23,522 bases of DNA from a virus (lineage: Duplodnaviria > Heunggongvirae > Uroviricota > Caudoviricetes). The stretch lies in IMG/VR virus record IMGVR_UViG_2537561991_000009, one strand, 5' to 3'. Made by a program: the position numbers. Positions 3,001-6,000 of this stretch are shown in pieces. How positions within the stretch are numbered: position 1 is the stretch's first letter; each line of letters opens with the position of its first letter.

Positions 3001-6000
3001 TCGTAAGGCGGCACGGGGAGAGTAATTCAATGACTCAAAACTATGAACTGATTGTGAAAGGGATCCGCAATTTTGAGAATAAAGTTACGGTAACTTTAGC
3101 GTTACGGGACAAAAAACGCTTTGACGGTGAAATTTTTGACCTGGACATCTCGCTGGACCGTGTTGAAGGTGCCGCGCTGGAGTTTTATGAGGCAGCAGCC
3201 AGAAGGAGCATCAGACAGGTCTTCCTGGATGTTGCTGCCGGGTTATGTGAAGGGGATGAGCAGTCGCCGGAAAAGTGCCCCGTAATTTTAGAGGCGCAGA
3301 ATGTGTGGATAACCTACAAAGGAAAGCTACCAGGAAGAATTACTGGTTCTCTGAAGACTCCTCCGGAATCACAACCTTAAGTCACTGACCAGAACAGATA
3401 AACCTGTCCGTGGGCAGAAACCGATAAATCCTGATAAATATCCATGAACGCAAAAATCAGATACGGCCTGTCGGCTGCCGTTCTGGCACTGATTGCCGTC
3501 GGTGCGCCCGCGCCTGATATTCTCGACCAGTTTCTGGATGAAAAAGAGGGTAACCACACTACGGCATACCGCGATGGTTCCGGCATCTGGACCATCTGTC
3601 GGGGGGCCACGATGGTGGATGGAAAACCCGTTTTTCCCGGTATGAAACTGTCGAAGGAAAAATGCGACCAGGTCAACGCCATTGAGCGTGATAAGGCGCT
3701 GGCATGGGTGGAGAAAAACATCAAAGTGGCATTGAGCGAACCCCAGAAAGCGGGGATCGCGTCATTCTGTCCGTACAACATTGGTCCCGGTAAGTGTTTC
3801 CCGTCGACGTTTTATAAACGAATTAATGCAGGTGATCGCAGGGGAGCGTGTGAGGCGATTCGCTGGTGGATTAAGGACGGTGGCAGAGACTGCCGTATTC
3901 GTTCAAACAACTGCTACGGTCAGGTATCCCGTCGTGACCAGGAGAGCGCGCTGGCGTGCTGGGGTATCGACAGATAAGCAGAATATTTTGCTGAAAAATA
4001 AGGCATGGCCACGCGGGCGGATAACACGAAATCCTGCGAACTGGCGAAACGTAAGTGAATAAAAGTAAAAACCCCGTTTGTTGGCAGCAAGCGGGGTTTT
4101 GTTTTTATGGCAGTAAGCTATGGGAGGCTGCCTTGATTGATTTTAGCAAACTGATTAGGGAGTTGCGACTCATGATTAGTCAATTACCAAACTGGAAATT
4201 TTTGCTGGTCTGGAGCATCCCTTTTTTATGGGTAGTATCCCAGTTAATTGTGGCAATTAAGGGGTAGCTATGTCAGACAAACTCATAACGCCGGCAAAGG
4301 TCCTGTGTGTGATTGTCGGTATTTCATTTTCACTAATGCTGGTTGCTCTTTTTCTGTCCCTCGCCTGGGTGATGTTGTCTTCGTCGGGGCTGCTGGGGTG
4401 ACAGTGACTGATGACATCAGCAGAGCGCTGGCTTTTGCTATTAAGTGGGTGGCTGTTGGTATTGCTGTGTCTCCGATGCTATATGGGCTGGCAAAACTGG
4501 TCATTGCGCTGAAATCGTGAACTTTAAAAAGATGAGTGCTGAACTTATTCGGGCAATGGCATTTGCCATTCGTATTGTGGCCATTGCTGTTCTGGTCTGG
4601 GCAATCCGTTGGTGGTGATATGAACCGTGTTCTGTGTGTGGTGATTATTGTCATGCTGGTGGCCTGTGGTGCGCTTAGTCTGGGGCTGAATCATTACCGT
4701 GATAACGCCATTACCTACAAAGCCCAGCGCGACAAAAATGTCAGAGAACTGAAGCTGGCGAACGCGGCAATTACTGACATGCAGATGCGTCAGCGTGATG
4801 TTGCTGCGCTCGATGCAAAATACTCGAGGGAATTAGCCGATGCGAGAGCTGAAAATGAAACTCTTCGCGCTGACGTTGCCGCTGGTCGTAAGCGCCTGCG
4901 TATCAACGCCACCTGTCCAGGTCCCGTGCGTGAAGCCACCGGCACCGCCCGCGTGGATAATGCAACCGGCCCCCGACTGGCAGACACCGCTGAACGGGAT
5001 TATTTCACCCTCAGAGAGCGGCTGATGACGATGCACAAGCAACTGGAAGGGGCGCAGGAATATATCCGTACTCAGTGCCTGAAATAAGTTTTGTTGATGC
5101 GCCGTATCGTCGCTGTATTCCCTCATTAACAGAGACCGCAGCCCGACAGGGAGACTCCTCTGCGCGAGTGTGCGGGGATAATCAAAAACGATACACACCG
5201 GGGTTTACCGCGTTAACGGAGCGCGGCGTTGTCCCCTCATAGTCGCCTGTCCGGTGCGATGGTGGAAGAAACCGGACTACATTGAAAATGATAACCATTA
5301 TCATTTTTGCGGGTCCTCCTGGTGGGGTGGGCCTGAACACGGGGCGGACGGCGCGGAAAAAGGCGCATTTTTGTGATTTTATCGTCATCATCATCATTAG
5401 CATAACTTGTTGTTTTTAATGTGTTTAACATTAAAAAGATGATGATTGTGGTTGATTTTTGTTCGACATCTTTATATGGCGGCATTTCTTTACAAAAAAA
5501 GAGCCACTTTTGTTCAGCGGTTTATGTGGAGGGATGTGAATGGACGGCGAGCTGAAAAATATGAAGTTAAATATTAATCAACTGGCAGCCCTTTCAGGTC
5601 TGCACCGGCAGACTGTTGCCGCCAGAATGGCGGATGTTCCTCTTGCACCAGGCAGTAATGAAAAGAAAAAAATGTATCTCCTGACGGATTTGATTATTTC
5701 GTTGCTGGAAAAACCACCGGCTTCCGAAGATGAAGAGATGAACCCACATGATCGGAAGGCATGGTATCAGTCCGAGCGCGAGCGTCTTAAATTTCAGCAT
5801 GAAACTGTTCAGCTTGTGCCAGTCAGTGATGTCAGGCGGTCCTTTTCTGTCGTGGTGAAAGCGATAGTTCAGGTACTGGAAACCTGGCCTGACCGGCTGG
5901 AGAGGGACAGGGGGTGGACCGCATCACAACTGAATGAAGTACAGATTGTGGTTGATGAGATCCGCGATACACTGGAAAAGGCAGTCATTGACTGTTGTGA

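What the first reader, a model, noticed from the sequence alone, without database searches (positions are those of the whole stretch)
3978..4619. Cluster of small hydrophobic ORFs, including a diverged tandem pair, between endolysin and Rz
The 640 bp between the endolysin stop and Rz start carries no long ORF. After a strong terminator (4072-4106) come at least four small ORFs of 28-43 aa, each dominated by one hydrophobic segment. The last two are clear paralogs (SRALAFAIKWVAVGIAV versus [17 protein letters not shown], about 70% nucleotide identity), which argues for selection rather than noise. Such peptides could be lysis-timing modulators or membrane-acting toxins inside the lysis cassette.
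Basis: partly seen in the sequence, partly recalled or inferred. Interest (0 to 1): 0.6.

Follow-up and report, generated by a model that had tools for sequence, protein, structure and literature searches.

The report
Small membrane-protein genes before phage Rz
The gap between the endolysin and Rz genes of this E. coli prophage holds four real but uncharacterised genes for tiny membrane proteins, which related phages swap in and out like cassettes; they are probably dispensable late-expressed extras, not core lysis genes.

Summary
After the SAR-endolysin stop (3977) come a conserved spacer, a strong intrinsic terminator (4068-4110) and four + strand ORFs, each with one hydrophobic segment: A 4133-4267 (TTG, 44 aa), B 4270-4401 (43 aa), C 4398/4404-4520 and D 4532-4618 (28 aa). 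D stops 1 nt before Rz. All four match PHROG families of unknown function.

C and D are paralogs at protein and profile level. DNA identity is only 57% ungapped. The C/D core is under purifying selection (pN/pS 0.17). A and B keep their length across diverged relatives.

The window's C is a 5'-truncated copy: it has lost 22 codons, its start and its Shine-Dalgarno. Relatives show a mosaic slot holding 1-4 such genes, with or without ant, behind a conserved hairpin and leader.

The same families occur with four holin and three endolysin types, in cassettes without Rz, and inside tail or baseplate operons. They are therefore portable late-operon cargo, not partners of one lysis protein and not degraded ant.

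Function is untested. My best guess is that they act generically at the inner membrane or on a host target late in infection. No literature was found. Interest is moderate.

The parts
2810..3025 (+). Context: class II (S21-type) pinholin, 71 aa, with the dual-start motif MYQMEK
   Evidence: PF04971 E 8.6e-33; PGAP 'class II holin family protein'
3444..3977 (+). Context: SAR-type lysozyme (endolysin), 177 aa, with a weakly hydrophobic N-terminal segment
   Evidence: PF00959 E 7.7e-24, phrog_7; hydrophobic N-terminal residues 9-27
3978..4067 (+). Conserved non-coding spacer after the endolysin (GCAGAATATTTTGCTGAAAAAT...GTGAATAAAAGT). It is a module junction, also found after the lipoprotein gene in Rz-less cassettes.
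   Evidence: Alignment A2; query positions 1-129 occur alone in many genomes; recurrence in L102/L106. The 17-aa mini-ORF at 4006-4059 is not conserved as an ORF.
4068..4110 (+). Intrinsic terminator hairpin AAAACCCCG...CGGGGTTTT plus T-run. T-runs on both sides suggest it works in both directions. It is the 5' boundary of the cargo slot.
   Evidence: homologous hairpins precede the first small ORF in 14 compared loci
4133..4267 (+). ORF A, 44 aa, TTG start, SD GGGAGG at 4122-4127; amphipathic N-terminus plus one TM segment; 38.5% GC against 54% in the flanks
   Evidence: phrog_6632 E 1.3e-12; SD duplex -10.2 kcal/mol, top 1%; 44-45-aa relatives in Escherichia, Salmonella, Providencia, Citrobacter, Enterobacter and Klebsiella; GC
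4270..4401 (+). ORF B, 43 aa, ATG start 2 nt after the A stop, one TM segment (predicted N-in)
   Evidence: phrog_4906 E 4.5e-21; 106 clusters, 43-44 aa; SD -8.4; pN/pS 0.53, stop at codon 44 in 82/86 copies; homologue directly before Rz in Stx phage P27
4398..4520 (+). ORF C, a 5'-truncated copy of a ~60-aa family. It has no ATG: GTG 4398 overlaps the B stop (GTGA), GTG 4404 is an alternative, and PGAP calls CTG 4365. Core: RALAFAIKWVAVGIAVSPMLYGLAKLVIALKS.
   Evidence: phrog_1115/3246/4493, E 1e-17 to 1e-25; full-length forms in L006 and L014; core pN/pS 0.17; weak SD
4532..4618 (+). ORF D, 28 aa (alternative GTG 4517 overlaps the C stop). It is a short-N-terminus paralog of C that ends IRWW; its stop lies 1 nt before the Rz ATG.
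   Evidence: phrog_4493 E 3.8e-6; BLASTP against C E 3e-5; the same N-terminal type MSAELI/MNAELL/MSADFI recurs; full-length C plus D tandem in L014
4620..5087 (+). Context: Rz i-spanin, 155 aa, with embedded Rz1 o-spanin lipoprotein (4840-5025)
   Evidence: PF03245 E 2.1e-51, phrog_13; Rz1 ORF with an LVVSAC lipobox

Best explanation
The interval is a variable cargo slot inside the late lysis operon of a lambdoid E. coli prophage. In this window it holds a tandem array of four genes for single-pass small inner-membrane proteins from three families: A, B and C/D. A, B and D look intact. C is a 5'-truncated copy whose translation is doubtful.

Shown by the data: the ORFs are conserved protein families. 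The array is packed start-to-stop into Rz (A stop, 2 nt, B start; B stop overlaps GTG 4398; C stop overlaps GTG 4517 or lies 11 nt before ATG 4532; D stop, 1 nt, Rz ATG). No sigma-70 consensus promoter follows the upstream terminator. The unit 'hairpin + SD leader + small ORF' recurs in other lysis cassettes and in tail or baseplate operons.

Inferred: the genes are transcribed only when Q-modified RNA polymerase reads through the terminator, so they are made late, together with holin, endolysin and spanin. The products insert into the cytoplasmic membrane.

Inferred from portability: because the families travel independently of holin, endolysin and spanin type, they act on the membrane itself or on a conserved host inner-membrane protein rather than on a phage lysis protein. 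The most likely effect is a dispensable adjustment of late envelope events, such as lysis timing or efficiency.

My estimates: real genes that are late-operon cargo, about 0.8; generic or host-target membrane action that adjusts lysis, about 0.35-0.4.
For: Family membership of all four ORFs. Purifying selection on the C/D core (positions 1/2/3 = 14/4/27, pN/pS 0.17). Length conservation of B and of A across six genera. One TM-grade segment in each, and local enrichment of such ORFs. Strong SDs for A and B. Terminator confirmed and no + strand promoter found in 2600-5600. Mosaic architectures whose junctions fall at ORF boundaries: R-C-B-Rz 78 loci, R-A-B-C-D-Rz 6, and also R-A-Rz, R-D-Rz, R-C-D-Rz, R-Ant-B-Rz, X-C-B-Lpp and others. 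Shared hairpin and leader. Association with unrelated holin and endolysin classes and with Rz-less cassettes. Insertions in tail (I-J) and baseplate operons. Presence in isolated plaque-forming phages PhiR5/PhiR12. The full array is in 587 of 5426 complete E. coli genomes, and parts of it in 2068.
Against: No expression, localisation or phenotype data exist; I found none in the literature. C and D have weak or no SD. C lacks its native N-terminus. C is frameshifted and D partly deleted in phage phiSTEC1589-Stx1c. About 8 of 95 B copies are frameshifted, and pN/pS for B is only 0.53. The antisense -1 frame mirrors the selection signal; it is rejected only because its ORF ends are inconsistent between architectures. 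The promoter scan is a crude consensus test, so expression from the prophage is not excluded. 'Adjusts lysis' rests on location alone.
Confidence: 0.45

Rival explanations
1. They are prophage-expressed morons. The small inner-membrane proteins would be made in the lysogen and protect it, for example by blocking DNA entry of superinfecting phages as HK97 gp15 does, or by altering a host transporter.
For: Mosaic presence and absence between genes that abut in other phages (K-12 Qin rrrQ and rzpQ overlap). Low GC of ORF A. Insertions in tail operons, like HK97 gene 15; the S. salamae copy is flanked by terminators. HK97 gp15 is a small inner-membrane exclusion protein (PMC3594210).
Against: No promoter-like site on the + strand after the terminator. 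The terminator lies upstream, not downstream, of the array. The ORFs are packed into Rz as one operon. The SEN34 copy has no room for a promoter between leader and ORF. No PADLOC match.
Confidence: 0.2
2. They are dedicated regulators of this phage's own lysis proteins. Candidates are an antiholin or co-holin for the S21 pinholin, a releasin-like helper for the SAR endolysin, or a modulator of the Rz transmembrane domain.
For: Position between endolysin and spanin in more than 100 loci. There is always at least one such ORF directly before Rz whenever the hairpin slot exists. Weak local similarity of C to pinholin TMD2 (6/16 identical, E 0.006 in a single comparison). Mu gp25 is a precedent for an accessory membrane protein downstream of a SAR endolysin (PMC9239132).
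Against: The same families occur with four holin and three endolysin classes, with two Rz N-terminal types, without Rz, and in tail operons. No Pfam holin or DUF2730 match. B shows no similarity to Rz. C and D are damaged in an isolated phage.
Confidence: 0.12
3. They are type-I-toxin-like membrane peptides: small pore-forming or depolarising toxins kept silent by an antisense RNA, serving addiction or abortive infection.
For: Size of 28-44 aa, a single hydrophobic helix, and aromatic/basic C-termini (RWW, IKG) reminiscent of the Ldr and Hok classes (this resemblance is from my own knowledge). One - strand promoter-like site (4276->4247) could drive an RNA antisense to ORF A that ends at the bidirectional hairpin.
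Against: One promoter-like site against 3.0 expected by chance. No Rfam family in 2500-6000 at E<=1. No own promoter. The genes sit in an operon with Rz. The families are confined to phage late operons.
Confidence: 0.08
4. They are largely non-functional passengers. The ORFs persist because recombination keeps moving recent copies around and hydrophobic codon usage rarely creates stops. At least C, and possibly D, are decaying remnants in this window.
For: C is 5'-truncated with no ATG and a weak SD. Frameshifted or deleted copies exist in phiSTEC1589 and among B copies. Within the 587-genome lineage the array is 97.8-100% identical, so there has been too little time for selection to show. pN/pS of B is 0.53.
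Against: The C/D core has pN/pS 0.17 over E. coli and Salmonella copies. The A N-terminus is conserved across six genera. Module junctions fall at ORF boundaries. Strong SDs for A and B. Profile search finds diverged members that keep the MKNGLExDAP...AFAI(K/R)...RWW architecture.
Confidence: 0.15

Closest known systems
PHROG families phrog_6632 (A), phrog_4906 (B), phrog_1115/3246/4493 (C and D); RefSeq hypothetical proteins WP_001043230, WP_001280935, WP_042004856, WP_032140280
   Same: Direct sequence membership: the window's ORFs are these families and proteins.
   Different: All are labelled 'unknown function' or 'hypothetical protein'. RefSeq starts differ from the ones I favour: A is annotated as 70 aa from GTG 4055, and C from CTG 4365.
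Morons of lambdoid phages, prototype HK97 gene 15 (small inner-membrane superinfection-exclusion protein; PMC3594210)
   Same: Small membrane-protein genes inserted between genes that are adjacent in related phages. They are mosaic, also occur in tail operons, and ORF A has deviant GC.
   Different: The defining own promoter was not found. The terminator is upstream rather than downstream. The genes are arrayed and packed into Rz. There is no sequence similarity.
Mu gp25 releasin (DUF2730; PMC9239132)
   Same: An accessory membrane-anchored protein encoded a few genes downstream of a SAR endolysin.
   Different: gp25 is 99 aa, N-out/C-in, with a 73-aa cytoplasmic domain. The proteins here are 28-60 aa with almost no soluble domain, show no DUF2730 match, and also accompany non-SAR endolysins.
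Holins, antiholins and accessory lysis membrane proteins (S21-68/71, P1 LydA-D, P2 LysA, T4 RI)
   Same: Small phage membrane proteins encoded in lysis cassettes and made late.
   Different: No match to any holin family. They lack the charged C-terminal tail typical of holins. They are not linked to a particular holin class. A holin with a dual-start antiholin motif (MYQMEK) is already present at 2810-3025.
Type I toxins (Hok, Ldr, Ibs, TisB)
   Same: Size, a single hydrophobic helix, and aromatic/basic ends.
   Different: No antisense RNA or own promoter is evident. They sit in an operon inside a phage late transcript. There is no homology.

Membership tests
PHROG small-protein families 6632 / 4906 / 1115-3246-4493 | Significant match to the family HMM over most of its length | tested here: met
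   A 1.3e-12 (profile 2-43 of 45); B 4.5e-21 (7-49 of 49); C 3.7e-25, 5.3e-22 and 4.1e-17, covering only the C-terminal ~40 profile positions, consistent with truncation; D 3.8e-6 and 9.2e-5
Moron (Juhala/Hendrix definition) | Inserted between two genes that are adjacent in related phages | tested here: met
   rrrQ and rzpQ overlap in K-12 Qin with no gap; the slot content varies from 1 to 4 ORFs, with or without ant
Moron (Juhala/Hendrix definition) | Own promoter allowing expression from the repressed prophage | tested here: inconclusive
   No + strand sigma-70 consensus site in 2600-5600, but the scan is crude and there are no expression data
Moron (Juhala/Hendrix definition) | Own terminator downstream of the gene | tested here: not met
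   In the window the only strong terminator is upstream (4068-4110), and D runs straight into Rz. This feature is met only for the S. salamae tail-operon copy.
Moron (Juhala/Hendrix definition) | Base composition different from neighbouring genes | tested here: inconclusive
   A 38.5% GC and B/C/D 49-50%, against R and Rz at 54-55%
Holin | Match to a holin family; at least one TMD plus a charged hydrophilic C-terminal domain; lethal hole formation | tested here: not met
   No Pfam or PHROG holin family match. The C-terminal flanks are 0-5 residues with net charge 0 to +1. Lethality is not testable here.
Releasin (DUF2730, Mu gp25) | DUF2730 signature; N-terminal TMD with a ~70-aa acidic cytoplasmic domain | tested here: not met
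   No Pfam hit at E<=1; the proteins are 28-60 aa
Two-component spanin (Rz/Rz1) | i-spanin: N-terminal TMD plus a periplasmic coiled-coil domain of about 100 aa; o-spanin: a lipobox lipoprotein | tested here: not met
   No periplasmic domain and no lipobox in A-D. B has no similarity to Rz. The real Rz/Rz1 follow at 4620-5087.
Type I toxin-antitoxin | Small hydrophobic toxin ORF | tested here: met
   28-44 aa, one TM-grade segment each
Type I toxin-antitoxin | Cis or trans antisense sRNA with its own promoter; independent toxin promoter | tested here: inconclusive
   A single - strand promoter-like site (4276->4247) against 3.0 expected by chance; no Rfam match; no transcript data
Known anti-phage defence proteins (PADLOC) | Match to a defence-system HMM | tested here: not met
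   No hits at E<=1 for A, B, C, D, X, Y or the lipoprotein
Degraded ant (antirepressor) gene | Residual similarity to Ant in any frame | tested here: not met
   tblastn of P27 Ant against 3901-4700 gave only one hit at E 5.0, and none in the whole window at E<=1e-3. The P27 homology covers only the spacer, ORF B and Rz.

The most novel reading that the evidence does not exclude
The endolysin-spanin junction of a large group of E. coli and Salmonella lambdoid phages may be a hypervariable locus for a previously unrecognised class of late-expressed single-pass membrane peptides. At least five families are involved (A, B, C/D, X, Y). They move as promoter-less 'hairpin + leader + small ORF' cassettes between lysis and tail operons. 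They could form a new layer of lysis control, or of phage-phage or phage-defence conflict, acting on a host inner-membrane target. In the Rz-less cassettes, together with the small lipoprotein phrog_7528, they might even replace the spanin function.
Probability: 0.2. Interest if true: 0.7.

Novelty: new variant of a known kind. Interest (0 to 1): 0.45.

Why it matters
Parts of this interval are present in 2068 of 5426 complete E. coli genomes (38%), including Stx-converting phages. Yet the genes are annotated only as hypothetical proteins, and a dedicated survey of Stx-phage lysis cassettes does not mention them (PMC8136144).

If the peptides change lysis timing, they would affect phage burst size and the release of Shiga toxin, which leaves the cell through phage lysis. 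If they act on a host membrane protein or exclude other phages, they would add a new family of small-protein effectors.

The slot also gives a tractable natural experiment: many combinations of 1-4 genes in otherwise similar phages, some already isolated as plaque formers (PhiR5 and PhiR12 series).

Tried and rejected
- **Rfam:** a scan of 2500-6000 at E<=1 gave no RNA family.
- **Degraded ant:** rejected.
- **Minus-strand gene (123-aa ORF, 4654-4283):** its frame shares third codon positions with C, so it mirrors the low pN/pS (0.24). However, antisense ORFs start and stop at different places in each architecture and run through terminators. Rejected.
- **17-aa mini-ORF 4006-4059 before the terminator:** not conserved as an ORF in L004, L008 or L011. 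Rejected.
- **ORF B as a duplicate of the Rz transmembrane segment (shared VLCV...MLVA):** BLASTP finds nothing, and B does not co-vary with the Rz N-terminal type. Rejected.
- **ORF C as a relative of pinholin TMD2:** only 6/16 identical, E 0.006 in a single comparison, plus one chimeric 554-nt ENA contig (P0116). Kept only as a lead.
- **Species-representative genomes:** both scans found no true homologue. A profile search of 1.84 billion representatives found only 24 small proteins of the same family and no link to a larger family.
- **Other libraries:** PADLOC, PDB, Pfam and NCBIfam gave nothing.
- **Literature:** searches by accession, by gene position and by topic found no characterisation.
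- **Not attempted:** structure prediction, because single helices give uninformative fold searches.
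Full report
**Where the window comes from.** The 642-nt interval is 100% identical to E. coli 55989 (NC_011748.1). It occurs, in whole or in part, in 2068 of 5426 complete E. coli genomes, and 587 of those hold at least 80% of it. The surroundings are a lambdoid lysis cassette:
- S21-type pinholin, 2810-3025 (PF04971)
- YdfR/DUF1327, 3030-3380
- lysozyme with a SAR-like N-terminus, 3444-3977 (PF00959)
- the interval itself
- Rz, 4620-5087 (PF03245), with embedded Rz1

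**Checking the observation.**
- The terminator is real: a 15-16 bp G+C-rich stem at 4068-4100 plus a T-run; the region folds with z = -4.4.
- Four + strand ORFs follow, each with one TM-grade hydrophobic stretch (maximum 19-residue Kyte-Doolittle mean 1.9-2.9).
- Such ORFs are rare in the window. Only 7 of 168 ORFs of 28-70 aa in six frames qualify, and 4 of the 7 lie in 4055-4618.
- PGAP already annotates B, C, D and sometimes A as hypothetical proteins.
- All four match PHROG families of unknown function: A phrog_6632, B phrog_4906, C and D phrog_1115/3246/4493. There are no Pfam or NCBIfam matches.
- C and D are paralogs. BLASTP gives 10/27 identical, E 3e-5. They share profiles. Natural hybrids exist, such as P0114, which has a C-type N-terminus and a D-type C-terminus.
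It is 29/51 ungapped, which chance nearly matches elsewhere in the window. By hand count it is about 67% with a two-codon gap.

**Are they genes?**
- C/D core: 17 distinct DNA versions from E. coli and Salmonella vary at codon positions 1/2/3 in 14/4/27 sites, with pN/pS 0.17 and no stops.
- B: selection is weaker (25/20/29; pN/pS 0.53 against 0.74 and 1.27 in the other sense frames). Its length is fixed at 43-44 aa down to 62% identity over 106 protein clusters, with the stop at codon 44 in 82 of 86 copies.
- A: relatives are 44-45 aa in Escherichia, Salmonella, Providencia, Citrobacter, Enterobacter and Klebsiella. They share a strongly conserved N-terminus, MIDFSKLIRELRxMxxxLPNWKFLL, and align from residue 1. 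This fixes the start at TTG 4133 behind a top-1% Shine-Dalgarno.
- The antisense -1 frame mirrors the selection signal because it shares third positions. Antisense ORFs, however, have inconsistent ends and run through terminators, so the + strand is the coding one.
- The interval contains no remnant of ant.

**Anatomy in relatives.** The region between the endolysin and Rz is a mosaic slot.
- Over 118 fetched loci plus the window the orders include: R-C-B-Rz (78), R-A-B-C-D-Rz (6), R-A-Rz (3), R-D-Rz (2), R-C-Rz (2), R-Ant-B-Rz (2), and single cases of R-C-D-Rz, R-C-B-C-D-Rz, R-A-B-Rz, R-X-D-Rz and R-Ant-C-Rz.
- Junctions fall at ORF boundaries.
- The canonical C-type protein is about 60 aa: MxKYKRILLRLTMKNGLELKAPVTDDISRALAFAIKW...ALKS. 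The basic leader is conserved at amino-acid level through synonymous Arg codons.
- L014 carries a full-length C followed by D, so the paralog tandem is an old unit. In the window, and in L081, C starts at ...CAGTGACTGATGAC directly after the B stop. It has lost 22 codons, its ATG and its SD.
- The remaining start options for C are GTG 4398 (overlapping the B stop), GTG 4404 (SD -6.0 kcal/mol) and PGAP's CTG 4365, which has no SD.
- D has the recurrent short N-terminus (MSAELI, MNAELL, MSADFI) and no SD. It lies 11 nt after the C stop, and its own stop is 1 nt before the Rz ATG.
- In the isolated phage phiSTEC1589-Stx1c, C is frameshifted and D has lost 30 nt, so at least these two are dispensable.

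**Context beyond this cassette.**
- C-type genes precede Rz in Salmonella prophages that have pinholin, lambda-S-type or HP1-type holins, and lysozyme or GH19 endolysins.
- B follows ant in a cassette with an M15 endolysin.
- C, with or without a diverged B, also occurs in cassettes with holin_8 and holin_3_7 plus a GH108 or M15 endolysin. These have no Rz at all. There the small ORFs are followed by a 51-60-aa lipoprotein (phrog_7528).
- Two families have jumped into morphogenesis operons. A C-type gene lies between tail genes I and J in S. salamae prophages, flanked by near-identical terminators. An A-type gene lies between baseplate genes of Salmonella phage SEN34.
- In every lysis-cassette locus compared, the first small ORF is preceded by a homologous hairpin, AAAA(G)CCCCG...CGGGG(C)TTTT.
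- In most of those loci the hairpin is followed by the leader ACCTTGA(G/T)nAAGGCAAGGGAGAA. The SEN34 baseplate insertion carries both hairpin and leader.
- The mobile unit is therefore hairpin, SD leader and small ORF, with no recognisable promoter.

**Interpretation.**
- Shown: these are conserved small hydrophobic proteins arranged as an operon continuous with Rz, and they are portable between late operons.
- Inferred from established lambdoid biology: transcription depends on Q-modified polymerase reading through the terminator, so the products appear late and insert into the inner membrane.
- Because the families are indifferent to the class of holin, endolysin and spanin, and can function from a tail operon, a dedicated partnership with one lysis protein is unlikely.
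- A generic membrane effect, or a conserved host inner-membrane target, fits better. Their strong enrichment in lysis cassettes makes a modest, dispensable effect on lysis timing or efficiency the best guess (about 0.35-0.4).
- Rivals are a gp15-like exclusion moron (0.2; lacks the defining promoter), a dedicated holin, endolysin or spanin regulator (0.12), a type-I-toxin-like peptide (0.08; no antisense RNA evidence), and passenger DNA (0.15 overall, but about even odds for C in this window).

**Comparison with what is known.** Sequence membership holds only for the unknown-function PHROG families. The elements resemble morons in their mosaic insertion but fail the downstream-terminator criterion, and no promoter was found. 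They are not holins, releasins (DUF2730), spanins or PADLOC defence proteins. A profile search of 1.84 billion representative proteins found only 24 relatives of C/D. All are 20-87 aa and share the architecture MKNGLExDAP...AFAI(K/R)...(RWW, ALKS or LK). The family is narrow, and source names place it mainly in Escherichia and Salmonella. I found no paper that describes these genes. A 2021 survey of Stx-phage lytic cassettes lists only holin, SAR endolysin and Rz/Rz1 (PMC8136144).

**Verdict.** The function is open. The most useful new facts are three. C is a truncated copy here. The slot is hypervariable and drawn from at least five small-protein families. The cassettes also move into tail operons, which argues against a lysis-protein-specific role. 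Interest is moderate (0.45). I class it as a new variant of a known kind: moron-like late-operon cargo.

Noticed in passing
L102-L109 (e.g. L102 2116-2961; L106 2291-2835): These E. coli lysis cassettes (Phage_holin_8 + Phage_holin_3_7 + GH108 or M15 endolysin) have no Rz/Rz1. After the endolysin terminator come small TM ORFs (X 65 aa or Y 50 aa, C-type, sometimes a diverged B) and a 51-60-aa lipoprotein with lipobox LVGC and two further Cys (phrog_7528, unknown function). How these phages breach the outer membrane is unclear.
   Followed up: partly
window 3978-4067; also L102 ~2965-3000 and L106 ~2840-2930: The roughly 90-nt spacer after the endolysin stop (GCAGAATATTTTGCTGAAAAAT...) is conserved across many prophages. 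It recurs after the lipoprotein gene of the Rz-less cassettes, so it behaves as a module junction. It has no Rfam match and no conserved ORF.
   Followed up: partly
L099 1330-1700 (S. salamae prophage, between tail genes I and J): The inserted C-type gene is bracketed by two near-identical terminators (AACCGCC..GGCGGTTTT), as if the native I-J terminator had been duplicated at insertion. This hints that these hairpins are the recombination sites.
   Followed up: no
protein P0116 (554-nt ENA contig): A chimeric ORF joins the pinholin N-terminus (to ...SPSQW) to the C-type C-terminus (VAVGVAVSPMLYGLAKLVIALKS). The pinholin TMD2 and the C core share a W.A.G...S pattern. This could be a real recombinant or an assembly artefact.
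   Followed up: no
window 4276->4247, - strand: There is a promoter-like site (CTGACA, 18 nt, CACAAT, with TG). Its transcript would be antisense to ORF A and would end at the hairpin at 4106-4068, which looks bidirectional. It is the only such site in 3 kb, where 3.0 are expected by chance, so it is weak.
   Followed up: no
window 3030-3380 versus NC_011748.1 (L001 708-1966): The interval is 100% identical to E. coli 55989, but the flank differs. In 55989 the YdfR/DUF1327 gene between holin and endolysin is truncated by extra DNA that carries a - strand 104-aa ORF. The window has an intact 116-aa YdfR.
   Followed up: no
window 2743-2771 (+): A second strong terminator-like hairpin (12 bp stem plus T-run) lies between the DUF6645 esterase-like gene (798-2660) and the holin. 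The late operon here is therefore punctuated by terminators that only antiterminated polymerase would pass.
   Followed up: no
A-family and C/D-family proteins (P0235, P0237, P0239, P0245, P0250, P0256; L111, L112, L120, L121): Two otherwise dissimilar families share an identical C-terminal ending, (I/V)RWW-stop. The ending is also present in the baseplate-operon copy, so it does not merely reflect overlap with the Rz ribosome-binding site.
   Followed up: partly
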